From Harriotta raleighana (lineage: Eukaryota): a stretch of DNA of 61,070 nucleotides. The notes beneath the pieces were generated by a model. It saw only the letters and a list, made by a program, of their open reading frames with translations. It was not told the origin of the DNA and searched no databases. Location of the stretch: positions 1,814,055-1,875,124 of the forward strand of contig JBNZDD010013650.1 in NCBI GenBank assembly GCA_050575255.1, given 5' to 3'. Within the stretch, counting starts at the first letter, position 1. Each line of letters opens with the position of its first letter. Positions 27,401-61,070 of the stretch are shown here, piece after piece. Both the position numbers and the translations under genes were made by a program.

Positions 27401-30400
27401 CCTATGTAGTGACTCATACTGGCATTCAAAATCTCCATGGCTATCTTTTGTAGCACCTTGGAAGTCAAGTGTGAAATTGGAAAACTACTTCATCCCATAT
27501 TTCTGCTCTACGGCTAAACATGATTCAGACACCTCTATGATTTTTACCGCAACAACTTCCGGCTCTCTATCCTTGGTTTCCTGTAGTCCTCCAATAAACT
27601 CCAGTGCAGACTGTAAGAGTAGCAACTATTTTATCTGAAGAACCTTTCGGTCTTCAAACTTTAACAATGCTTTTGTAATATCTTAATATGTTAGCCATCT
27701 ACTTTATTTTCCCTCTCCATATCCCAAAATTTGTTTCTGTTTAATCTCGGTCATACTGGAACCTGTTATTGATACTTAACCTACAGTGACTATTTTAGGG
27801 GCAAACATGACAATGAATTGACACACACCAATATTCCACAAACAGCCAAATCAATGATCAATTTATTCTGGGGAGCATTGGGAAGGCAGGATGTTGATTT
27901 ACAATCTGATCCGAAGGATGGCACATCTCAATCAATCAAAGTTACATTTATATAGAGTCTTTTACGTTGGGAGGACATCCCAAGACGCTGTACAGTCAAG
28001 AAGGGATCAGAGCAGGGGCGGATGGGTCGGGGGAAGGAAAGTAAGAAAAATTAACTGTATATTTTGTGGGCAAAACGCACATCAGAGAATTCAGCCCTCA
28101 CTGTGTCCAAACCAACCCATAAAAATTATAAATAGTAATATAAATAAAGCAAAATTTTTTACATTCACACATTACCTCCTTATGGGGCTCCATAATTTCA
28201 GTAACACTTTTTCCAGTTACTTGAGCAAGGACTTGCAAAGAATGCATGGCCTGCTTCCGCACAGTGGAGTTTGGGGATGTCACTTCACGAACCAAGTCAT
28301 GAGTTACATGGTGGAATGACTTTTCCTGAGCTGCAAGAAGCTCTTCAGTTTTTTCTTCGTCCTTTAAGGGAGTTGCACAGCGAACTAACAGCTGTTCTAA
28401 TGTGGTCTTTGCCATTGCAACAGCTCCGTTGGAAACCTGAAAAGAAATGGGAATTATTTTTCAAGCACAAAATTAGAATTCCGTTCAGACAAAAAAAATT
28501 GACCAGAACCATGTCACTTCACGAACCAAGTCATGAGTTACATGGTGGAATGACTATAGTTCCATGCAGCGGTATAATATCAAATCACATACAGTAAAAC
28601 TATTGTTCTAAATTCTTACTTCCTGTGAAACTGTTTTGTTCCTTTTATGTAATAAACATTTCCCCACTTGTTTGACATTTTGTCTGACATTGGATTTGCA
28701 ATGTTGATTAAATAATCTTGCTTATTCTCTAATAAATGCAGCAATATTTTAATAATAACAATCCTTGCATTTGATAATAGCATTCTCACGTCTTCTAGAT
28801 GTCTCCTTATTGCTATCCAGTGTTATTTAACATCCATATATAGATATTTATATTTTTAACATGATGATGCTATATAACAATAATTAATCCTTGCATTTGA
28901 TATAGTGCTTTTCACATCTTCTAGTTGTCTCAAAGCATTTCACAGAAAACATGGTAAAGTAAATTGATTGTATATATGTGGGTGAAACCACATTGGCAGC
29001 CAATTGTGCACTGCAGTGTCCCACAAACAGTCGTGGATTGAAATGACCAATTCATTATTGTTTTTTTTGAGGGATTATCATTAGGCATGTGGAGTAAGGA
29101 AATTTGCCCGAAGTTTCACCCTGCCTAGAATTGAACCCAGGTCTCTTGCTTGTAAAGGGAGTGCTTAACACTGAGCTACAAGAATCCACATTTTGTGCCT
29201 AATATATAATATGCCTAGATTACAATTTTTATTTATTTATTTGTTTTTTCCGTTCCAGTGCACCTAGGCCTAAGTCAGTTGTAGCCTTCAATCTACATGA
29301 TTTGAAAAGTGCAGGTCTCTCAGTTTTGGCAAATTTAAAGCTGTCCTCTATGCTGTTGACTGGAAAATGCAGCTTTAAGTTCTGTAAGAATGTGATATTA
29401 AATCAATTTTATTTGGTGACAAGGATGACTTTAAAAGTGTAACTTAAGAAAAATACATGCTTTGTATTTAAATTATGCAGTTCATATTTTTAGTAAACTA
29501 TGAAAGTTAGAAACTGTTTTAATTTTTATCTTTTAAATTCCAATGACCTTAAATTCTGCATCTGCCAACATTTTCAGAAGTGCTTCATGTTGAATCGTAT
29601 TTGATCTGATGAAGCTAAGCAAACTAAATCAATGGTTTAAAAATGATGATATATATTATACATATATATATATACACTCCTGGGATAACTTTGTCTAATT
29701 TTAAACTAACTTGCATGTCTAATTCACAATAAGGATTGTAGTTTTACTGCACAACTGCATTCAAACAATTCATTCATCCAAGGAATTAATTAAATCCCTT
29801 TGGGTAAAGTGTTGCCAAGTCATGCATCCAATTATCTACCTCTTCCAACATCCCGTCCATCACTTCTTTTATGAACCTCAATGTGAGCACTGTTAGCTGT
29901 TATCTCAAACTTCACAGAAAAACACTTTTAGTTATGCCTAATCCTCATTATAACAGAACCAAGGCCACAGTACCTCTCCAGTGAGATCCATCATGACAAA
30001 AAGGAGAGCCTTGAGAAATGTCTGCTGGTTCTGAAGGACCCAGATCAAAGGAAGTCTTTCCATTAAGAATTTAATGGACACCACGCCTCCCAGCTTGGCG
30101 TACCAAGCTTGCTCATAACAGCAGGCACAGAGGCGTTCCACAATGTAAGAAAATAATGGTAACTGACAAGCCTGGAGTTTAAAAAAAAAGGTGTTATTTG
30201 ACAATATGTCATAATTGAACAGGTAACTGATCTAAACATTAAACAACTAGAGATGGCATTGGTTACATTGCGTGGATATGGTTTTATAAATTATTTGAAA
30301 TTCAAGAGAAGATTTACCCGTTCTTTTGATCCTAAAATGATACTTGCTACATCAAAGATGACAGCAAGTGCCACCTCGCCTATTTTACACAGCTCCTTCT

Positions 30401-41439: not shown

Positions 41440-44400
41440 AGGGAAGCTGAGGAGTGCATGGCGCATGGGGTGGTGAGGGGTGTAGGAGATTTGGAACACC
41501 GCAAAATTGATTCAGTATCTGAAAATGTTAAACAATGTGTGCTATTATTCCATTAAAATGTGTACCAATCCTAAAAAAAATTGCTAGTTCTTAAAATATA
41601 CAAATTGAACAACACAGTAACGATCTGCTAAACTATTAGATGTGATTGTCTGTGCTTTCTTACCTTGCAGCAAATTGGGCAGCAATGGTAGAAACTCCTG
41701 ATAGAGGAGATCATGGCTGCCGCCACCAATGGATCTGAAAAGAGCTCGAAGCAACAAGAAATAGTTGTATGGCTCTTTAGCTGTTTGAGCGAGCTCCATT
41801 GAACTGTTCACAATCTTGTGTAAATGAGGCTAAAAAACAAAACAATAAACATTGTTAATTTAGTAATTACTTCAGAGATGGCTATCTGTATTCATTGGGA
41901 CCAGCACAAATAATTGGACATTAGCTGGGCCAATAGAAAAGTGCGGCCACACATTTTCTGGTACAATGGTCCCCCGCCCACCACAAACCCGCCATAAATG
42001 TTTCTGGGCTGTGGGCCGCTCACATCACTGTGGCCAGGGCAGCTCCAGACACACATGTGCAGTCGAGGACAAGCAGTAAATGGGCTACACTCAGAGACCT
42101 CACTGCTGTGATTGTCTATGTATGACTCCATGTCAGTCTGTCTATGTGTGTGGGTGTTTATGAGTGTCTCTGCGTGAATATGCGTCTCTCTGTCTGTTTG
42201 TGCATGGCTTTGTGTCTTGACTCTCTGTGTGTCTCTGACTGTATGTATATATATCTGTGTCTGTAAATGTATGTATCTGCCTGTGAATGTGCATGTCTCT
42301 CCGTGTCTGTGAATGTGTCTCTGTGATTGTGAGTCTCCACCACATTCTCACCTTCACTATGCCTATTTCACTCTCAGTATCCCCATCTCTCACCCTATTT
42401 CATTCTCACTTGCACAGTGTAAAAGTGCTTACCTCACATAACCAGGAACAAAAAGCCCTGTTGTGAGTCTGTGTAAAGTTGGACAAATGCCCCAAAGTAT
42501 ATTAGGGATGCAATTTATGTGATTTAGCGATCGGAGCAACTAAATCGCATCATTAGCAAGCTCAATTGTATGTTCACAATAGGACTTTTGGGGTTGGTAT
42601 TTCACAATCCCAAATCAAATTCTGCAACAAAGCCCACTGCAAATAAAAGTGCATGCAGATAATTGGAGTATGGATTCCCAGCAGTCTACTGTTTCTCACT
42701 GGATCAATACATTTAAGAATTAAATAGTTTATGCATTTAATAGAAGCCATTGCTAAACAAAAAATTATACTGACATGTTGGTATTAGGAGACTTCATTAC
42801 TCATTCAATTGTCTACAGGTCAAAACAGTCATTCTCTAACCAGTAAAATAACATTAAAGTGTAGATTTAAGAAGGTATGAAAATCAATTCATTTAAATTG
42901 CAGTTACACCTCATTAAATTCATTCGACCTTGGATGTTCTGACAGTGGGGAAGAATTAAGTCACTTTCTTTCAATAAAAACTACTTTAAAATGACCTTCA
43001 TACAACAAAATTATACATCAAACCATTAATCACTGAAGGAAGTCATATTTTAAACAGTCACACCATTTATATTAGTCATCATTTAATATCTTACTGGTTT
43101 CACAAACAAGAACAAAACGTTCTCAAAAATTATACAAGAAATCTGAAGTTTTCATTTTACTTGTACTATCCTTATTAAAACTACTGGAAACAATATGTTA
43201 TTGTTCAATTATGAAAGAAGGGCAAAAACAACCAATATTAATCTCACACCAAAAGACACCACACAGCTCACTTCAGGAGCTACAATCGATCATAAATGTT
43301 CTTGGCTCAAGAGTGAAATATAAATCAAGCTTGATTCTGGGATCAAATTATTAATAACAATAATAATAATAATAACCCTTGCATTTGATATAGCGCTTTT
43401 CACATCTTATCAACGTCCCAAAGCGCTTCACAGAGTATACTGTAAAGTGAATTGACTGTATATTTGTGGGCGAAACGCGGCAGCCAATTGCGCACAGCAG
43501 TGTCCCACAAACAGTCATGGATTGAAATGACCAATTTTATTATTGTAGTTTTTTTGGGGGGAGGGATTATTATTAGGCATGTGGAGTAAGGAAACTTGCC
43601 CAAGGTTTTGCCCTGATCTGCCTGGATTCGAACACAGGCCTCATGCTTGTAAGGCATGTAAGGCAAGTGCTCTAACCACTGAGCCACAGGAGGCCGGGTT
43701 ACTAAACTCTTCTAGATTTCAGGTTTCAACACTAAAAATACATACACAAAAGTCCCCCCTTTCTTTAGTTTTAAGAAGTGTATAGCCATTATTGGCTGCT
43801 TCACTAACTGCTTTACCCGGATAATGGCACGATATTCAATCCAAACCTCAGAGATTACAAAACGACAGTCGAAGCATTTTATAAAAAACAGCAGAAACCA
43901 AAAGGATTTTTTTAAGTGATAGATTAGTCTTCAAAAGAAGTTCACATACTTCACATACAAAACAGCTATCACCAAAAGCAGAAAATCACCTGGGACATGC
44001 ATGCATCTTTTAAGAAATCTGCACCAAACAGTTTGCTATTGTGAGATCACAGCAATGTCTAGCTCAAGGTGAAAAGAAATGATGAAGAATTATTTTCTTA
44101 AGTACACACAGAAAAATTGTTTCCACAAAACCAAAAAAAAGTGCCTATGATTGACATATGGAGAAAAAAATTACTTTCCAAACTAAGAAAGCATCTCCAG
44201 AAGGTTGCAGTTTAAAAAAAACTCAAGCTTTTGAGGAAATATTTTGTTTTTCCTCCACAAGTTTGTACACTCACCAGAGAGCTGACATTACTGGAGCAAC
44301 TATGACTTAGATTTGAGCAACTCTACAGGGAGCCATAGAAGAAATCCATATCCTTTTCCATCCAATAGTGAACACATTTCCTTGCTCCAATTAACATCTT

Positions 44401-53400: not shown

Positions 53401-56400
53401 AACACAGCAATCAATTGCGCACAATTGATTGTGAATTGCTTTTAGCCTCTCTGGAACTTCATCCCACAATCCCTTTGCCTCGCTTTCTCCCTTGCCTCCT
53501 TCAAAGTCGGGTCTCAAGACCTTCCTCTTCAATCGTGCCTTATACTGGTCTCCCAACTCTCTCCCTCCCTTCCTAACTCCCTCCCCTTCCCCCTAGCCCA
53601 CCCCTCCTCCTTGCTCAAGTGGAACTCCTGTGGCTCAGTGGTTAGAGCACTCGCCTTACATGCCTTACAAGCATGAGGCCTGTGTTCGAATCCAGGCAGA
53701 TCAGGGCGAAACCTTGGGCAAGTTTCCTTACTCCACATGCCTAATAATAATCCCTCCAAAAAAACTACTATAATAAAATTGGTCATTTCAATCCATGACT
53801 GTTTGTGGGACACTGCTGTGCGCAATTGGCTGCCGCGTTTCGCCCACAAATATACAGTCAATTCACTTTACAGTATACTCTGTGAAGCGCTTTGGGACGT
53901 TGATAAGATGTGAAAAGCGCTATATCAAATGCAAGGATTATTATTATTATTATAAGTCCTGCCCTGACTGTTCAGGCTTGGGACATCCTCCCGACGTGAA
54001 AGACTCTCTAGAAATGTAATTTTGTTGTTGTTATCTCCCATGAGTGCTCTAACCACTGAGCTACAGGATTACACATGAATTAGATCTGGCTCATCGAAAA
54101 AAATACAGTTTGTGTTCTCAGATTCAAGCTGTACTCATACCACAAGCCACCTCACACAATTTCCTATCAGGACAGGTGGGGAGAGGCAAAACTAACTACT
54201 TTTGGTGAAGAGAAAATAGTATAACCTTTGACCAAAAGTTTCAAAAAGTCTTAAAAATCTCCCTTGCTTGCATTTGCCTTTTATGCAGAGAGCGTCTCAG
54301 GGCAGTTAACAGCAGTGTGGCTTGATGCTGATGCATCATGGAGTAATGGAGGAAAAGTGACCAAAGGCACAGTCCTGTTTAAATCTGTTCAACCCTTGAT
54401 GTACTCGGCCTATAGCACCACCTGCAGGAATACTGCTTACCTTGCTTGAAGTGTAACCTGAAGCATGATTGTGTTCATTATCAAGGGCACAAAATCACCT
54501 ACAATGCTGTGTATGTTCTGTTTGTACAGCTGAAAGAGAGCAGAATTCTCATCACTTTTATGTCTAACTACCAATGTTAAGCATTAATTGTCCCTTTAAA
54601 ATTTCTAATGTTCTTAAGTAATCCTCTTTGTTTCATTTGTAGAACATTACGGTGCATTAATTCTCCCACCAATAATATTACAAGTGGACAAGTACCTGAT
54701 ACATCAATACAACAATAATCGGGAGCTCAGCCAACACCTTCAGTGACAGGGATCCTCTAGGAATTATTGTATGCTGAAAGACACAAGTATAACATAAAAC
54801 AAACTTTCATTAATATAGGCAACTATTGTAATGCTAAAAAATAAATATTAATATAAACAAGAGCAGCAGTATCCACATGCAGTCTTTGGGCAAACGCCAC
54901 CAACCGTTGCAATTAACAATCAGCTTCTTTCTAAGCCGGAACCTTTGTTTTTTGAAATATATATATCTATACTAATAAAAACAAAATGCTTGTGTGTGTA
55001 CAAGCCAATAACGCAATAACTGATCAACGTAGAGACATGATTTATACCTCATTGGAACGATCTTGCACACAAGAGTGTTTTGGTCATAGCTCTTTCAAGG
55101 GTATTTTGATGAGCTGTATTTAAAAGATGCTTTAATAAAGGCCCAAAATATGAGGTGTGCATGGTGTTCTGTAAAGCCAATAACTCAATAACACTATGTG
55201 ATAAGATTCCCACCTAAAAAAAGGCAATGGTTTTCTCTGTCATTATCTTGTGCCCTTGATAAGTACAGTATTAAGATAGATGTATCTCTAGAACTCTGTG
55301 TGAATTCCCACTACTTTGTTGTAGAATATTCTTCCTGAATCTTGTCTATCCCCTGGCAGATGGGGAGCCAATGGAGTTGGCCAAGAAGTGGGAGAGATGC
55401 AATCATAGAGCTTAGAGTGGTAGAGGACACGAGCAGCAAGAGTTCTGGATTATCTGCAGCCTGTGGAGGAAGGAATTGGGAAGGTCGACAAGCTGTTGTA
55501 GTCGAGACTGGATGTGATGAAGTAAACTCTTCCATTCACAAGATGCAGATCATTCAAAACTTTGCAGCTCGTGTCCTCTCCTGCACCAGGCTCCACAACC
55601 CTATTTCTCCCATTCTCGCCTAACTCCCATTGGCTCCCCATCTGCCGCCTGACCCGCCCTAGCATCAGTGCCCAAGCTTTCAGCTTCCGTGCACCCACAC
55701 TCTGGAACTCGATCCCACAGTCCCTCCACCTCGCTTCTTCTCTTGCCTCCTTTTCGACCGTGCCTTCAGCTGCCCTCCCACCTCTCTACCTTGTCTCAAC
55801 CCTACTCATCCCCTCACCTTGCTTGGGTCCCGACCCGAATGTTCTGTGGCTTGGGACGTCCTCCCAACGTGAATTGTGCTCTATAAATGTAATTTTCTTG
55901 TTGTCAGCTTCTGATTCAGAACCTCATGTCACAACACTTCATACAACACACTTTAAATGTAGTGACTATTGCTATGCAGGCTTTGCAAATAATTCTCCAG
56001 ATAAAATTGGTCGGCGTTTGTCAAACATTGCTGTACACAAACTGATTTCCATGTTCACTTACCAATTATAATAATATTCAATATTTTAGACACTAAATGA
56101 ATGTAGGTTTATTAGATTATCAAAGGCAAATGCTGCAGTTAATCTATCCCACTAAAAATGAAATTTCAGTGAATTATGCATAAGAAAGATTGGCCAAGGC
56201 ATCAGGAAAAAAACGTAATAGCACATGTCGAGACGTTAAAGGATATGTTCTCCATGTATCAGCAAAGTAATAACGAAACAACATTGACCGAAGCAAAGTT
56301 AAGCAGGGTCTACCTGTAGTGTTCTATAGTAAACTGCAGTTTAGATTGTTATAAAGGTTTGAACACAAACAAGTTAATGTGGTATCACAATATTGGACCC

Positions 56401-59400: not shown

Positions 59401-60768
59401 ATAGTACATTTGCAAAATCCTGAATTTACATGGACTATGATACTATTTAACAGTGGAAACTTACTTCAAAGTTTTCACTGACTTCCTGCATCATTTTCAG
59501 CTTGGTTTCATCAGCTGTAACATAAACGTATTAAAATCCCTGCTTTAGTTTTTTAAACATCACATTCAGTTTGGTTTTAGACACATTTCAACAAAAGCAA
59601 TCAGATCTTATCAGTTTTACTAACACCGCCCGTGAGAATGCAGCATTAGAACCACATATACGCACAACAAACACACCTCACATCCACACTGCTACATTCC
59701 ATATGGTTCTGTGGGGCTCTAGCAAATGTTTTGCATCATCTTGCTTCTGTTCAACTTATGATATAGATAACCATCTGTGTCACGTAGCTCTTTTATTAAT
59801 GACTCTTTTTGGTCTTACTGCCAACGTTTTCAATTTCAATTTAACCTAGATCACACTTGTATATGTTATGATTTTAAAAATTGATGATTCCATTGAAGGA
59901 AAGGGAGCATTAGCTAAGATTCAAAAAATATATATTTTAAATTTGTTTTTGTACTTACTTCTTTGGGTTGAGATTATTACAATACTAATTTATTCAATCC
60001 GATTCTTGAGCCTTTCCCTCTGTTCCTTTCTCACTCTCTGTTCCACCTCTGTTGGTCTCTGTGACCATCTTTAGCCACTATGCCTGCTCACTGTAAATCC
60101 CCCAAATATATTCTCTTTGAAATTTCTATCCCAAAGTCCCTCTGTGCTTGGTGACTTCCATCACCTTTGTAAAGCACTTGAAGATGTTTATTCTGCATGA
60201 AAACTTGACATAAATGAAGCTGTCAAACTAGAATTATCCTGATACCATACTTGTTTATTTTGCCTTAATATTATTGGTGGGAGAGGGTTGGAAGGGAGGA
60301 AGTGAAGAAAGAGAGAATATTTTAGCAGCACAGAGCAGTCAACCCAAAGAGACATGAGTTTGTTTCCTCCATCCCGCTGGCAGGCGTAAGCTTGAAAATA
60401 TAGAACCAGCAGACGAAAAATGATTGAAAGAGAAAAAGTACATTGCAGTTTCAGTGCTTCAAAGCACTACACGGGAATTACATTTTCTACAGACAAAGAT
60501 TAGAACAAGACAAACTTTTTAGTCCATAGTTAAAAAAAGATGTGACAGCAAAGCCATAATTTCCATTTTCTGGAATAAGAGGCAATTTGTTAAGCTAATA
60601 GGAGTGGCAGTTGTTGTGCTATCCTTGAGAATATGAACAGCACTTTTAAAAGTTCTGAGCAGAAGACTTACGTGTGTTGCTGTCAGTCAAGACAGCCACA
60701 AACTGAAGGTATTTCTTCATTAAAGTGGTCTGATCGACCACGGCACCCGGTGTCGCGACAAAAGCCAT
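3310..60768 (-). CDS. TRRAP: TRRAP (transformation/transcription domain-associated protein), 45 coding exons in window, 6703 nt (~2234 aa), 3'-incomplete
   Basis: Spliced translation runs from [24 protein letters not shown] to ...[13 protein letters not shown](G), colinear with vertebrate TRRAP. Every intron is GT..AG and phases join without stops. Confidence 0.99.
3525..3738 (-). CDS. TRRAP: TRRAP coding exon 44 (214 nt)
   Basis: [16 protein letters not shown]...IFPTEP; cattag / gtaggt. Confidence 0.97.
5290..5610 (-). mobile_element. Full-length tRNA-derived SINE (older copy)
   Basis: Head GTAGCTCAGTGGTTAGAGC...GGTTCAATTCC and the same body and tail. Confidence 0.88.
6369..6515 (-). CDS. 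TRRAP: TRRAP coding exon 43 (147 nt)
   Basis: [15 protein letters not shown]...DKLLMTV; ttccag / gtacga. Confidence 0.96.
7639..7749 (-). CDS. TRRAP: TRRAP coding exon 42 (111 nt)
   Basis: [13 protein letters not shown]...LIRIACQ; atatag / gtaaga. Confidence 0.97.
7937..8342 (-). mobile_element. tRNA-derived SINE carrying an internal inverted duplication
   Basis: Tail at 7937-8080, head remnant at 8294-8342, palindrome at 8179-8293. Confidence 0.8.
9065..9184 (-). CDS. TRRAP: TRRAP coding exon 41 (120 nt; NLS-region linker)
   Basis: [13 protein letters not shown]...[20 protein letters not shown]; atgtag / gtgagt. Confidence 0.92.
9326..9484 (-). CDS. TRRAP: TRRAP coding exon 40 (159 nt)
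   Basis: [14 protein letters not shown]...QRIKDQQ; ctttag / gtaact. Confidence 0.97.
10061..10267 (-). CDS. TRRAP: TRRAP coding exon 39 (207 nt)
   Basis: [14 protein letters not shown]...IVQHFR; ccatag / gtaagt. Confidence 0.97.
10862..11128 (-). CDS. TRRAP: TRRAP coding exon 38 (267 nt)
   Basis: [15 protein letters not shown]...HKKIVLQ; tcttag / gtaagc. Confidence 0.97.
11675..11803 (-). CDS. TRRAP: TRRAP coding exon 37 (129 nt)
   Basis: [14 protein letters not shown]...SVFITK; gttcag / gtgaaa. Confidence 0.97.
11966..12192. mobile_element. Tigger-like MITE family D
   Basis: TA|CAGGCAGTCCTCAAGTTACG...CGTAACTTGAGGACTGCCT; internal AGTTAC(G)A repeats. Confidence 0.85.
12686..12884 (-). CDS. 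TRRAP: TRRAP coding exon 36 (199 nt)
   Basis: [16 protein letters not shown]...DELKAK; caccag / gtgaat. Confidence 0.97.
14080..14261 (-). CDS. TRRAP: TRRAP coding exon 35 (182 nt)
   Basis: [13 protein letters not shown]...CLLNYC; taatag / gtacgc. Confidence 0.97.
14508..14669 (-). CDS. TRRAP: TRRAP coding exon 34 (162 nt)
   Basis: [15 protein letters not shown]...LQFQAIK; ttccag / gtaaat. Confidence 0.97.
14783..15427. mobile_element. Tigger/pogo-type MITE family A
   Basis: 19-bp perfect TIR CAGTAAAAGCCCGTTTATC, TA TSDs, AT-rich internal subrepeats. Confidence 0.92.
15869..16060. repeat. Palindromic repeat (30-bp perfect arms), resembling a Penelope-derived palindromic family common in sharks
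   Basis: 15869-15898 is the exact reverse complement of 15994-16023; family assignment is from recall. Confidence 0.75.
16158..16277 (-). CDS. TRRAP: TRRAP coding exon 33 (120 nt)
   Basis: [16 protein letters not shown]...WSRMFM; gtacag / gtaatc. Confidence 0.97.
16994..17113 (-). CDS. TRRAP: TRRAP coding exon 32 (120 nt)
   Basis: [16 protein letters not shown]...ERAMLIE; gtgcag / gtatta. Confidence 0.97.
17369..17632. mobile_element. Tigger/pogo-type MITE family C
   Basis: TA|CAGTAAAATCTCGATAAT...ATTATCGATCTTTTACTG|TA. Confidence 0.85.
18532..18552 (-). CDS. TRRAP: TRRAP 21-nt cassette microexon (coding exon 31, PAMEGVE)
   Basis: ttcttgttttggtttag|CCTGCCATGGAGGGGGTAGAG|gtgaga; phase 0/0 between SDGN and EMKIC; peptide matches a TRRAP isoform insert I recall from other vertebrates. 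Confidence 0.85.
19344..19412 (-). CDS. TRRAP: TRRAP coding exon 30 (69 nt)
   Basis: [23 protein letters not shown]; tcctag / gtaagt. Confidence 0.97.
21045..21510 (+). mobile_element. CR1-clade LINE 3' fragment; CR1/HER1-like tail also at ~3045-3205 and a decayed copy at ~23700-24010
   Basis: [28 protein letters not shown]...TRGHQFK is a typical CR1 ORF2 C-terminus. Confidence 0.85.
22182..22596. mobile_element. Tigger/pogo-type MITE family B
   Basis: TA|CAATAAAACCTTGTTTATCCG...GAGGTTTTACTG|TA; paralogue at 48226-48616. Confidence 0.88.
24411..24581 (-). CDS. TRRAP: TRRAP coding exon 29 (171 nt)
   Basis: [18 protein letters not shown]...KFCDQMM; ccttag / gtaagt. Confidence 0.97.
25125..25246 (-). 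CDS. TRRAP: TRRAP coding exon 28 (122 nt)
   Basis: [14 protein letters not shown]...GEACMRK; gaacag / gtcagt. Confidence 0.97.
26141..26237 (-). CDS. TRRAP: TRRAP coding exon 27 (97 nt)
   Basis: [32 protein letters not shown]; ttacag / gtaagt. Confidence 0.97.
27058..27219 (-). CDS. TRRAP: TRRAP coding exon 26 (162 nt)
   Basis: [15 protein letters not shown]...HKVFYTE; tcccag / gtaagt. Confidence 0.97.
28176..28436 (-). CDS. TRRAP: TRRAP coding exon 25 (261 nt)
   Basis: [15 protein letters not shown]...IMEPHKE; tttcag / gtaatg. Confidence 0.97.
28879..29187 (-). mobile_element. Full-length tRNA-derived SINE (older copy)
   Basis: Same head, body and tail. Confidence 0.86.
29974..30171 (-). 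CDS. TRRAP: TRRAP coding exon 24 (198 nt)
   Basis: [14 protein letters not shown]...MMDLTGE; ctccag / gtactg. Confidence 0.97.
30318..30535 (-). CDS. TRRAP: TRRAP coding exon 23 (218 nt)
   Basis: [13 protein letters not shown]...ILGSKER; ccttag / gtaaat. Confidence 0.97.
31026..31412 (-). mobile_element. L2 3' fragment. Further L2 tails at ~409-457(+), 4410-4590(-), 5630-5820(-), 13365-13548(+), 24640-24990(+), 53440-54032(+)
   Basis: Shared tail gggacgtcctcccgacgtgaaaggcgctatataaatgtaattttgttgttg. Confidence 0.8.
31826..32025 (-). CDS. TRRAP: TRRAP coding exon 22 (200 nt)
   Basis: [15 protein letters not shown]...VAVAQQC; ttccag / gtgagt. Confidence 0.97.
32580..33076 (+). mobile_element. 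L2-clade LINE 3' fragment
   Basis: LQIIQN(S)AARVL / LHWLP-type motifs; tail gtaattttgttgttgtt. Confidence 0.88.
33221..33372 (-). CDS. TRRAP: TRRAP coding exon 21 (152 nt)
   Basis: [16 protein letters not shown]...QLLAHP; tttcag / gtaaga. Confidence 0.97.
33517..33699. mobile_element. MITE family A, truncated (one end)
   Basis: Matches the right third of family A, ending GGCTTTTACTG|TA; left boundary approximate. Confidence 0.8.
34640..35562 (-). mobile_element. L2-clade LINE 3' fragment
   Basis: Frameshifted ORF2 C-terminus (FDPQLSF..., [25 protein letters not shown]) plus 3'UTR ending (TTG)n. Confidence 0.9.
36760..37432. mobile_element. MITE family A, opposite orientation
   Basis: Reverse complement of 14783-15427 with TIRs and TA flanks. 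Confidence 0.9.
38926..39126 (-). CDS. TRRAP: TRRAP coding exon 20 (201 nt)
   Basis: [12 protein letters not shown]...IQLPMEK; tcatag / gtgaga. Confidence 0.97.
39474..39791. mobile_element. MITE family C, opposite orientation
   Basis: Internal sequence is the reverse complement of 17369-17632; right TIR degenerate. Confidence 0.78.
40001..40257 (-). CDS. TRRAP: TRRAP coding exon 19 (257 nt)
   Basis: [15 protein letters not shown]...VRAELMQ; ttgcag / gtaaaa. Confidence 0.97.
40684..41306. mobile_element. Tigger-like element family E (degenerate TIRs); related end fragments at ~26860-26977 and ~56232-56316
   Basis: Left AGGTAGACCCCGCTTAAC, right GTTACGCGAGGAATACCTG. Shared subterminal sequence (cttatgggaaaaatgt) with 26890; 56232-56316 is the reverse complement of the left end. 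Confidence 0.7.
41390..41438. other. N followed by 48-nt poly-G (contig-edge sequence of unreliable length)
   Basis: n at 41390, then uninterrupted G. Confidence 0.85.
41664..41829 (-). CDS. TRRAP: TRRAP coding exon 18 (166 nt)
   Basis: [15 protein letters not shown]...LLPNLLQ; ttttag / gtaaga. Confidence 0.97.
42134..42335. repeat. Degenerate TG/TC low-complexity microsatellite
   Basis: tgtgtctctg-type units. Confidence 0.8.
43359..43692 (-). mobile_element. Young full-length tRNA-derived SINE
   Basis: A box TGGCTCAGTGG, B box GTTCGAATCC, SacSINE/AmnSINE-like 3' part, (TTA)n tail. Confidence 0.92.
44835..45026 (-). CDS. TRRAP: TRRAP coding exon 17 (192 nt)
   Basis: [12 protein letters not shown]...AENEQMLK; less common AAG acceptor (tttgaag) / gtaagg. 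Confidence 0.95.
45246..45832 (-). mobile_element. L2-clade LINE 3' fragment
   Basis: [29 protein letters not shown]...[13 protein letters not shown] plus tail. Confidence 0.9.
46242..46436 (-). CDS. TRRAP: TRRAP coding exon 16 (195 nt)
   Basis: [17 protein letters not shown]...ISKNYALQ; ttttag / gtgatg. Confidence 0.97.
47511..47608 (-). CDS. TRRAP: TRRAP coding exon 15 (98 nt)
   Basis: [32 protein letters not shown]; tttcag / gtatag. Confidence 0.97.
47699..47957. other. ~130-bp direct duplication around a single N (assembly overlap artefact)
   Basis: 47699-47828 repeated at 47830-47957, N at 47829. Confidence 0.9.
48226..48616. mobile_element. Tigger/pogo-type MITE family B
   Basis: TIR CAGTAAAACCTCGTT, TA TSDs. 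Confidence 0.9.
49718..50030 (-). CDS. TRRAP: TRRAP coding exon 14 (313 nt; Pro/Thr-rich linker)
   Basis: [14 protein letters not shown]...[10 protein letters not shown]; tttcag / gtaagg. Confidence 0.97.
50790..51024 (-). CDS. TRRAP: TRRAP coding exon 13 (235 nt)
   Basis: [16 protein letters not shown]...ILMRMLE; atctag / gtacgt. Confidence 0.97.
51196..51274 (-). CDS. TRRAP: TRRAP coding exon 12 (79 nt)
   Basis: [25 protein letters not shown]; ttacag / gtagga. Confidence 0.97.
52045..52414 (+). mobile_element. Old DeuSINE (SacSINE1/AmnSINE-like) copy; other remnants at ~37700-37935 and ~51395-51510
   Basis: Deu-domain-like segment gatggaccttaaagattctatggcattatttgaaaagagaagggagtttctc, followed by a degenerate SINE tail. 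Confidence 0.65.
52575..52713 (-). CDS. TRRAP: TRRAP coding exon 11 (139 nt)
   Basis: [22 protein letters not shown]...TTDLRN; ctatag / gtatgt. Confidence 0.97.
53043..53139 (-). CDS. TRRAP: TRRAP coding exon 10 (97 nt)
   Basis: [32 protein letters not shown]; ttgcag / gtacgt. Confidence 0.97.
53621..53953 (+). mobile_element. Young full-length tRNA-derived SINE
   Basis: Near-identical to 43359-43692; possible AAGT TSD; nested in an L2 tail. Confidence 0.92.
54441..54529 (-). CDS. TRRAP: TRRAP coding exon 9 (89 nt)
   Basis: [29 protein letters not shown](R); tttcag / gtaagc. Confidence 0.96.
54696..54773 (-). CDS. TRRAP: TRRAP coding exon 8 (78 nt)
   Basis: [26 protein letters not shown]; tttcag / gtactt. 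Confidence 0.97.
54966..55195 (+). mobile_element. Helitron-like non-autonomous 5' end
   Basis: A|TCTATACTAATAAA start; homologous to 480-672 on the minus strand; no 3' hairpin-CTRR end identified. Confidence 0.55.
55340..55903. mobile_element. Two head-to-head L2 fragments (minus 55340-55522, plus 55524-55903)
   Basis: The same L2 ORF2 segment is present in both orientations. Confidence 0.82.
56845..56970 (-). CDS. TRRAP: TRRAP coding exon 7 (126 nt)
   Basis: [14 protein letters not shown]...DSESRT; ttgtag / gtaagt. Confidence 0.96.
57060..57116 (-). CDS. TRRAP: TRRAP coding exon 6 (57 nt)
   Basis: [19 protein letters not shown]; ttacag / gtatgt. Confidence 0.97.
57509..57592 (-). CDS. 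TRRAP: TRRAP coding exon 5 (84 nt)
   Basis: [28 protein letters not shown]; tttcag / gtaagt. Confidence 0.97.
58275..58379 (-). CDS. TRRAP: TRRAP coding exon 4 (105 nt)
   Basis: [14 protein letters not shown]...MFRFLE; ttgcag / gtaagt. Confidence 0.97.
58895..59005 (-). CDS. TRRAP: TRRAP coding exon 3 (111 nt)
   Basis: [14 protein letters not shown]...QEKPAQ; ctcag / gtgtgt. Confidence 0.97.
59465..59514 (-). CDS. TRRAP: TRRAP coding exon 2 (50 nt)
   Basis: (P)[16 protein letters not shown]; ttacag / gtaagt. Confidence 0.97.
59595..59746 (-). ncRNA. SCARNA28: Intronic box C/D scaRNA guiding 2'-O-methylation of U2 snRNA U47 (SCARNA28/mgU2-47 orthologue)
   Basis: Terminal stem AAGCAA/TTGCTT; C box ATGATGC (59739-59733); D box CTGA (59604-59601). 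The guide AAACTGATAAGA pairs with U2 nt 44-55 and the D+5 rule gives U47. Internal GU-rich hairpin; D box ~86 nt from the 3' splice site; same host intron as human SCARNA28 (recalled). Confidence 0.9.
60672..60768 (-). CDS. TRRAP: TRRAP coding exon 1 (97 nt CDS; exon extends through 5'UTR to 60822)
   Basis: [11 protein letters not shown]...LTDSNT; AACATGG Kozak context; donor GTAAGT; acceptor ttttttgcag above 60822. Confidence 0.96.
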
Positions 60769-61070
60769 GTTCATTATAGAGAAGGGGTCCACCAATATAT
60801 TTTTCAAATGACTGGAGGCTGTCTGCAAAAAACATTCAAAGGAAAATAATTAGCATCTAACAACTGCAACACTGAAAACAGTTTCAAAATGCACATACTA
60901 ACATACAAATACTTGATAATCTGGGACGGTTGGGCCCAATCACTTCCCGGATTTCGGAGTTTGCCGGTATTTAGAGCCGACCCTAGACATGACTGGGGAA
61001 ACCCTGCCCCATACACCAAGTCAGCTGTAAACACACTGAAGGCGAAGAATGGCCGTGGGGGAGTGTGGGG

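What the first reader, a model, noticed from the sequence alone, without database searches (positions are those of the whole stretch)
59595..59746. Hidden C/D scaRNA for U2-Um47 in the first coding intron, with a Cajal-body-type GU stem
Seen: C box, D box, 6-bp terminal stem, a 12-nt guide complementary to U2 nt 44-55, and a hairpin (AGAACCATATG...TATATGTGGTTCT) enclosing a G/U-rich stretch. Established: the D+5 rule predicts Um47, and GU-wobble stems direct C/D scaRNAs to Cajal bodies. Inference: this is the SCARNA28 orthologue, kept in the same TRRAP intron across jawed vertebrates. The C box is non-canonical (AUGAUGC) and the GU tract is irregular rather than a pure (GU)n repeat, which makes it a useful test of the localisation signal.
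Basis: partly seen in the sequence, partly recalled or inferred. Interest (0 to 1): 0.7.

Follow-up and report, generated by a model that had tools for sequence, protein, structure and literature searches.

The report
Chimaera copy of U2 guide SCARNA28
An intron of the TRRAP gene of a chimaera-like cartilaginous fish holds a well-conserved copy of a known vertebrate guide RNA (SCARNA28) that is predicted to place a methyl mark on uridine 47 of the splicing RNA U2; it is an ordinary new member of a known family.

Summary
Confirmed, on the minus strand (59746→59595). It matches Rfam sno_ZL1 (= mgU2-47/SCARNA28) end to end at 52.1 bits, E 7e-11, below the 64-bit cut-off. It lies in the first coding intron of TRRAP. 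Its 12-nt guide pairs perfectly with U2 nt 44-55 in 6 of 6 full U2 copies fetched from this genome, and D+5 is U47. In two relatives it has 1 and 5 listed substitutions in 152 nt against about 7% and 11% elsewhere in the intron, none in boxes, guide or terminal stem. Corrections: the family is published down to lamprey, so it is older than jawed vertebrates. The C-box change lies outside the kink-turn core, and opossum has a similar one. A 6-bp alternating G·U/U·G stem like the human Cajal-body signal is predicted instead, but weakly, and not in one relative. Expression, Um47 and localisation are untested; one RNA run gives a weak hint. The scan earlier noted a similar TRRAP-intron guide in another genome. 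New member of a known kind; low interest.

The parts
59595..59746 (-). Predicted box C/D scaRNA, SCARNA28/mgU2-47/ZL1 orthologue, about 152 nt
   Evidence: Rfam RF02723 model 1-196 matched at 59750-59594, 52.1 bits, E 7e-11, GA 64; conserved in two relatives
59741..59751 (-). 5' arm of terminal stem (6 bp inside the predicted RNA, 11 bp with flank)
59733..59739 (-). C box AUGAUGC; position 7 non-canonical, kink-turn core intact
   Evidence: no listed difference in runs X1, X3, X6 or X2
59720..59725 (-). 5' arm of internal stem P1 (UUGCUA)
   Evidence: pairs with 59622-59617, p 0.85-1.0 for its inner 4 bp in the constrained fold; same stem as in the Rfam consensus with two both-side changes (read by eye)
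59690..59700 (-). 5' arm of predicted 11-bp helix (partner 59645-59635)
   Evidence: p 0.75-0.99 for 10 of 11 pairs, unchanged in relatives; length not significant, 98 of 300 shuffles reach it
59650..59689 (-). G/U-rich tract with two GNGUGNNUGN TDP-43 consensus sites (59689-59680, 59676-59667)
   Evidence: motif as quoted in PMC11233918
59658..59676 (-). Predicted apical wobble stem-loop GUGUGU/GCGUAU (G·U, U-A, G·U, U·G, G-C, U·G; 7-nt loop), candidate Cajal-body signal
   Evidence: p 0.41-0.49 at 37 C and about 0.8 at 10 C; pairs kept but p ≤0.06 in organism A
59648..59710 (-).
   Evidence: p ≤0.04; central A-U broken by 59702 in both relatives
59635..59645 (-). 3' arm of predicted 11-bp helix; alternatively part of the local hairpin of the Rfam consensus (59646-59623)
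59606..59617 (-). 12-nt antisense guide to U2 nt 44-55; D+5 = U47
59601..59604 (-). D box CUGA, 86 nt upstream of the 3' splice site
59590..59600 (-). 3' arm of terminal stem
60672..60822 (-). TRRAP first coding exon (ATG at 60768); 5' edge inferred from an AG acceptor
   Evidence: matches human TRRAP aa 1-33, E 3e-9; spliced to the next exon in RNA contig X1; acceptor
59515..60671 (-). Host intron, 1157 nt, GT-AG, phase 1 (first coding intron; human intron 2)
59465..59514 (-). TRRAP next coding exon, 50 nt

Best explanation
This is the chimaera orthologue of SCARNA28 (mgU2-47, Rfam sno_ZL1): a box C/D RNA gene in the first coding intron of TRRAP whose 12-nt guide matches U2 snRNA nt 44-55 and is predicted to direct 2'-O-methylation of U47, likely in Cajal bodies. 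Shown: boxes, stem, guide register against this genome's U2, host intron and splice junctions, and excess conservation in two relatives. Inferred from established C/D biology and the human orthologue: TRRAP pre-mRNA is spliced; Snu13/15.5K binds the C/D kink-turn; NOP56, NOP58 and fibrillarin assemble; exonucleases trim to the terminal stem, leaving about 150 nt; the guide pairs with U2 and fibrillarin methylates the base facing D+5. Least certain: the G/U tract forms a short alternating R·U/U·R terminal stem and/or binds TDP-43, which sends the RNP to Cajal bodies (via WDR79/WRAP53 or TDP-43) rather than the nucleolus.
For: Full-length match to RF02723, E 7e-11; it is 1 of 2 Rfam hits at E≤0.05 in the 61-kb window. 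ZL1 is the U2-U47 guide and is conserved to Petromyzon (Kishore 2013, passages); mgU2-47 genes lie in TRRAP introns across vertebrates (Marnef 2014). Host exons match human TRRAP, and an 11,117-nt contig of run X1 joins exon 3 to exons 2 and 4. Guide and D+5 register; chance 2 of 5000. Conservation: organism B 1 listed substitution in 152 nt vs 68 in 994 (Fisher p 0.0008); organism A 5 in 152 vs about 103 in 919 (p 0.0013); none in C box, D box, guide or terminal stem. The DNA search finds a single copy. The only intronic contig of X1 in the 1146 nt laid covers 59610-59815, a weak hint. The predicted apical stem resembles the human element G58-U63/A68-C73.
Against: The score is below Rfam's gathering threshold (52.1 vs 64). 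No data show a discrete 150-nt RNA, Um47 in this species, or localisation. The X1 contig runs about 69 nt past the predicted 5' end, has depth under 5 and was picked by the query, so it may be pre-mRNA. The whole RNA folds no better than shuffles. The apical wobble stem has p under 0.5 at 37 C, and in organism A a terminal stem of ≥4 alternating pairs appears in only 1.6% of sampled structures. The thermodynamic rod conflicts with the local hairpin of the Rfam consensus. The longest UG run is 2, whereas inserted (UG)2 failed and (UG)6 was needed for full targeting in human cells. The table of differences for organism B was cut to 40 rows of all runs, so '1' is the number listed.
Confidence: 0.93

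Rival explanations
1. It is the orthologous, working U2-U47 guide, but it has lost an effective Cajal-body signal and accumulates in the nucleolus or nucleoplasm. It would be a snoRNA by location.
For: No UG run longer than 2. The wobble stem is only weakly predicted and is not favoured in organism A. Human mutants without the stem go to the nucleolus but still accumulate.
Against: The tract is still the most UG-dense part of the intron. Organism A's changes at 59676 and 59659 keep R·U/U·R pairs in the same register. Two TDP-43 consensus sites are present in all three versions. A 4-bp wobble helix was proposed to suffice in a human mutant.
Confidence: 0.2
2. It is a decayed, non-functional relic of SCARNA28, and another copy does the job.
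For: C-box position 7 departs from consensus; score below the Rfam cut-off; no direct expression data; the family search of the genome was too shallow to exclude paralogues (one search missed this locus itself).
Against: Boxes, guide and stem show no listed change in two relatives while the intron differs by about 7-11%. The guide+D pattern occurs at 3 places in the genome; the other 2 have no ZL1 match and no matching C box and 3' stem.
Confidence: 0.04
3. It is a chance assembly of short motifs, or a conserved intronic splicing element (a UG-rich TDP-43 site) rather than an RNA gene.
For: The 21-nt guide+D pattern also hit 2 metagenome contigs that show no C box within 350 nt; one scored 23.9 bits with the model. 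UG-rich intronic sites are common TDP-43 targets.
Against: Full-length model match at E 7e-11 in the very intron where the human gene lies, on the sense strand, with C box, 11-bp stem and D+5 on a known methylation site.
Confidence: 0.01

Closest known systems
SCARNA28 / mgU2-47 / ZL1 (Rfam RF02723 sno_ZL1; PMC4041459, PMC4053766, PMC12150615, PMC6412121)
   Same: Same host intron of TRRAP, sense strand; same terminal stem and 3' guide-D-box end; target U2 U47; internal G/U tract; internal stem P1 kept.
   Different: 152 nt vs 189 nt in human (published rows 137-207 nt). C box ends in C. No long (GU)n run. The exon/intron junction reads CAC|GTA, so the E-box CACGTG needed for the human independent transcription unit is absent. 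No cartilaginous fish is among the 11 rows of Fig. S1.
Lamprey mgU2-47 (row of Marnef 2014 Fig. S1)
   Same: By eye, the 3' third upstream of the guide resembles this copy more than the tetrapod rows do; it also has an irregular GU tract, and a P1-type pairing is possible.
   Different: 187 nt, canonical C box. Not aligned by tool.
SCARNA7/U90, SCARNA9, SCARNA2 (other UG-bearing C/D scaRNAs)
   Same: C/D guides for snRNAs with a G/U localisation element.
   Different: Other hosts and targets (U1 A70; U2 G19; U2 G25/C61); the known C/D scaRNAs were described as 330-420 nt. My search for SCARNA7 in this genome failed twice.

Membership tests
SCARNA28/mgU2-47 (RF02723) | Match to the family covariance model over its length | tested here: met
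   model 1-196, 52.1 bits, E 7e-11
SCARNA28/mgU2-47 (RF02723) | Score at or above Rfam gathering threshold (64 bits) | tested here: not met
   52.1 bits. This is a curation threshold, not a biological feature; the loss comes from the shorter, divergent middle.
SCARNA28/mgU2-47 (RF02723) | Located in sense in the TRRAP intron after the first coding exon | tested here: met
SCARNA28/mgU2-47 (RF02723) | Antisense element to U2 44-55 with D+5 on U47 | tested here: met
   6 of 6 full U2 copies
Box C/D guide RNA | C box, D box and terminal stem forming a kink-turn | tested here: met
   3-nt bulge, tandem G·A, U·U, G-C present; only the last pair is C·U; 6-11 bp stem
Box C/D guide RNA | Purifying selection on boxes and guide | tested here: met
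   two relatives only
Box C/D guide RNA | Stable processed RNA bound by fibrillarin | tested here: inconclusive
   One 203-nt contig in one RNA run of a relative; contigs cannot show ends
Box C/D guide RNA | 2'-O-methylation of U2 U47 in this species | not testable with these tools
   needs RiboMeth-seq or LC-MS; shown in human and mouse
Intronic C/D scaRNA | Terminal stem of alternating G·U/U·G (R·U/U·R) pairs on the apical hairpin | tested here: inconclusive
   6-bp stem predicted, p 0.4-0.8 here and in B, ≤0.06 in A
Intronic C/D scaRNA | Cajal-body localisation; WDR79 or TDP-43 binding | not testable with these tools
   needs FISH and co-IP; TDP-43 consensus sites present
SCARNA28 independent transcription unit (PMC12150615) | [quoted passage not shown] | tested here: not met
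   junction is CAC|GTA; no CACGTG in 60401-60823

The most novel reading that the evidence does not exclude
The chimaera RNA reaches Cajal bodies and drives Um47 without any UG run longer than two, using only a shifting wobble stem or dispersed GNGUGNNUGN sites. That would make it a natural minimal signal for separating the WDR79 wobble-stem model from the TDP-43 (UG)n model. It would also suggest that long (GU)n tracts and the MYC E-box-driven independent transcript of SCARNA28 are later additions.
Probability: 0.3. Interest if true: 0.4.

Novelty: new member of a known kind. Interest (0 to 1): 0.22.

Why it matters
It fills the cartilaginous-fish gap between the published lamprey and tetrapod copies of SCARNA28, and shows a real RNA gene that annotation at Rfam's cut-off would miss (52 vs 64 bits). 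It does not change what is known of the family: function, host intron and vertebrate-wide range are in print. Its one use is as a short natural variant for testing how intronic C/D scaRNAs are sent to Cajal bodies, where two published models differ.

Tried and rejected
Plus-strand reading: nothing (z -0.07). Rfam at gathering level found only a tRNA-like hit. An AGAGCC/GGUUCU pairing: p 0.0. A second guide to U2: the only other complement of ≥7 nt was a 7-mer inside the GU tract; other snRNAs and rRNAs were not tested. Genome-wide RF02723 search: scored 35 of 289,609 candidates and missed this locus, so it is uninformative on paralogues. SCARNA7 search as a lineage control for GU tracts: no answer, twice. 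Metagenome scan for more vertebrate orthologues: 2 hits, neither with a C box, so no covariation alignment could be built. TRRAP exon search for lineage: inconclusive, best 68%; RAG1 settled it. The stretch upstream of the window read largely N, so exon 1 was not located. Paper searches with no result: scaRNA+U2 snRNA+Nipped-A, snoRNA+ZL1+TRRAP, scaRNA+Callorhinchus. The paper on optimal snoRNA distance to the 3' splice site was not held; that rule is recalled only. The scan's notes by sequence gave nothing.

Full report
Observation. The feature lies on the minus strand, 59746 to 59595; the plus strand shows nothing. The C box AUGAUGC is at 59739-59733 and the D box CUGA at 59604-59601. A 6-bp terminal stem extends to 11 bp with the flanks. 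I fetched this genome's own U2 genes (38 matches, 6 full-length at about 196 bits). In 6 of 6 the stretch at nt 44-55 is the same, the candidate's 59617-59606 is its perfect 12-nt complement, and the fifth base upstream of the D box faces U47. Such a guide+D arrangement arose in 2 of 5000 shuffles of the intron and once in 40 shuffles of the window. The kink-turn geometry is complete (3-nt bulge, two sheared G·A pairs, U·U, G-C); only the outermost pair is C·U. That this core is what Snu13 reads is established knowledge, recalled.

Identity. Rfam at gathering level reports only a tRNA-like hit. At E-value level it gives sno_ZL1 (RF02723) over the whole model, 52.1 bits, E 7e-11, cut-off 64; this is 1 of 2 hits at E≤0.05 in the window. 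Kishore 2013 (PMC4053766, passages) describe ZL1 as a GU-repeat C/D RNA predicted to guide U2 U47, validate the modification by primer extension, and trace it to Petromyzon. Marnef 2014 (PMC4041459: abstract, parts 2-4 of 6 of the text, passages, and part 1 of 3 of the supplement) name it mgU2-47, 189 nt, in TRRAP intron 2, with orthologues in TRRAP introns. Their Fig. S1 has 11 rows, including lamprey and no cartilaginous fish. PMC6412121 (passages) equates mgU2-47 with scaRNA28.

Host and lineage. The flanking exon matches human TRRAP aa 1-33, and a downstream exon matches aa 372-452. The intron is 1157 nt, GT-AG, with the D box 86 nt from its 3' end; that this is a favourable position is recalled, as the paper was not held. 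Run X1 holds an 11,117-nt contig whose loose ends join exon 3 to exons 2 and 4, which confirms the junctions in a relative and shows that X1 is RNA. This genome's RAG1 is 93% identical to Callorhinchus milii, 82-87% to sharks and rays, and at most 80% to the other listed vertebrates (best 120 of 233 hits shown). The animal is therefore a chimaera-like cartilaginous fish. A search for scaRNA+Callorhinchus found no paper; that is the only search behind the statement that this lineage's copy seems undescribed.

Conservation and copy number. Organism B (run X2) spans the laid intron with 69 changed places; 1 is listed inside the 152 nt and no gap is (the table showed 40 rows of all runs and omitted 100). 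Organism A (X1, X3, X6) has 5 substitutions and no gap in the RNA, against 106 other letters in a 995-nt contig that is mostly intron. Fisher tests give p 0.0008 and 0.0013. No listed change touches a box, the guide or the terminal stem, so the odd C box is real and tolerated; the opossum row of Fig. S1 also departs at that position. A DNA search finds one copy. The guide+D pattern occurs at 3 places in 1.1 Gb; the other 2 lack a ZL1 match and a matching C box and stem. The family search of the genome missed this locus and cannot exclude diverged paralogues.

Expression. No holder was on record as RNA. X1's only intronic contig covers 59610-59815 at depth 4.95 and carries the same five differences as organism A's DNA. 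It overlaps the RNA but runs about 69 nt further 5', and the run was chosen with this stretch. This is a weak hint only. X7 gave no test.

The GU element. The tract is real: 80% G+U and the highest UG density in the intron, 11 vs at most 7 per 41 nt. Its longest runs are only (UG)2 and (GU)3. With boxes and guide held open, the best fold is a rod: stem P1, an 11-bp helix, and an apical 6-bp stem GUGUGU/GCGUAU. That stem follows the alternating R·U/U·R rule that Marnef found essential, and resembles the human element G58-U63/A68-C73 (read on the human row of Fig. S1 by eye). Organism A's two changes in it keep the pairs, and its other three fall in unpaired positions. Against this: the stem has p 0.41-0.49 at 37 C (about 0.8 at 10 C); in organism A another register wins (p≤0.06); an 11-bp helix is reached by 98 of 300 shuffles; the RNA as a whole is no more stable than shuffles; and the Rfam consensus puts 59646-59623 in a local hairpin instead. 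The fold is unresolved. Two GNGUGNNUGN sites, the TDP-43 consensus quoted in PMC11233918 (passages), occur in all three versions. PMC6412121 argues that TDP-43 rather than WDR79 carries most of these RNAs to Cajal bodies. Um47 falls when Cajal-body scaffolds are lost (PMC8336889 and bioRxiv 2025.11.30.691380, passages).

Mechanism. Most likely the RNA is cut from the spliced TRRAP intron, protected by the C/D proteins, and guides fibrillarin to U2 U47 (0.93 for a working orthologue). It probably does so in Cajal bodies (about 0.75, my estimate). The human gene also has an independent, E-box-dependent transcription unit (PMC12150615: abstract, sections 19 and 20, passages). Here the junction is CAC|GTA and no CACGTG lies in the exon or the first 270 nt of intron, so intronic processing is likely the only route.

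Comparison and novelty. It works like SCARNA28 and meets every sequence and synteny criterion tested except Rfam's score threshold and the human E-box. The wobble stem and expression are inconclusive; Um47 and localisation could not be tested. It is a new member of a known kind. The scan's notes hold a similar guide in a TRRAP intron of another, arthropod-like genome (e1-7595341, unchecked) and a note that calls this genome chimaera-like (e1-9892015, in line). Verdict: real, correctly identified and ordinary; interest 0.22, rising to about 0.4 if it proves a minimal Cajal-body signal.

Noticed in passing
window 60666-60674 (exon 2/intron junction, minus strand): The junction reads CAC|GTA, one base off the human E-box CACGTG reported to drive independent transcription of SCARNA28.
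   Followed up: partly
window 59610-59815: A 203-nt contig of RNA run X1 (relative, organism A) is the only intronic cover in 1146 nt. It extends about 69 nt 5' of the predicted RNA, as a precursor or pre-mRNA piece would.
   Followed up: partly
window 60672-60822: X1's spliced TRRAP contig holds 152 nt upstream of exon 3, within 1 nt of the 151-nt exon predicted from the AG acceptor; a weak hint of an upstream non-coding exon, as in human.
   Followed up: partly
window 59622-59660, minus strand: The segment before the guide resembles the lamprey row of Marnef Fig. S1 more than the tetrapod rows (by eye), which may be the ancestral state.
   Followed up: no
window 5537-5608, 29116-29180, 43618-43689, 53628-53699, 54042-54066: The Rfam tRNA hit has four further diverged copies in the window (72-96% alike), so it is more likely the head of a tRNA-derived SINE than a tRNA gene.
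   Followed up: partly
window 60140-60203 and 60300-60353: Short intronic pieces draw several unrelated contigs in the relatives' DNA runs; likely repeat fragments.
   Followed up: no
window 60768-60673: The TRRAP N-terminus lacks one residue after position 9 relative to human.
   Followed up: no
L002/L003 and L004/L005: U2 genes occur as neighbours 2.3 kb apart on two contigs, consistent with a tandem U2 array.
   Followed up: no
L017 1201-1221 (metagenome contig): Exact guide+D-box pattern just after a short tandem repeat, with no Rfam hit and no C box within 350 nt; treated as chance.
   Followed up: partly
earlier finding e1-7595341 (another genome): An unchecked note reports a similar U2 guide in a different TRRAP intron of an arthropod-like animal; if right, the TRRAP link predates vertebrates.
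   Followed up: no
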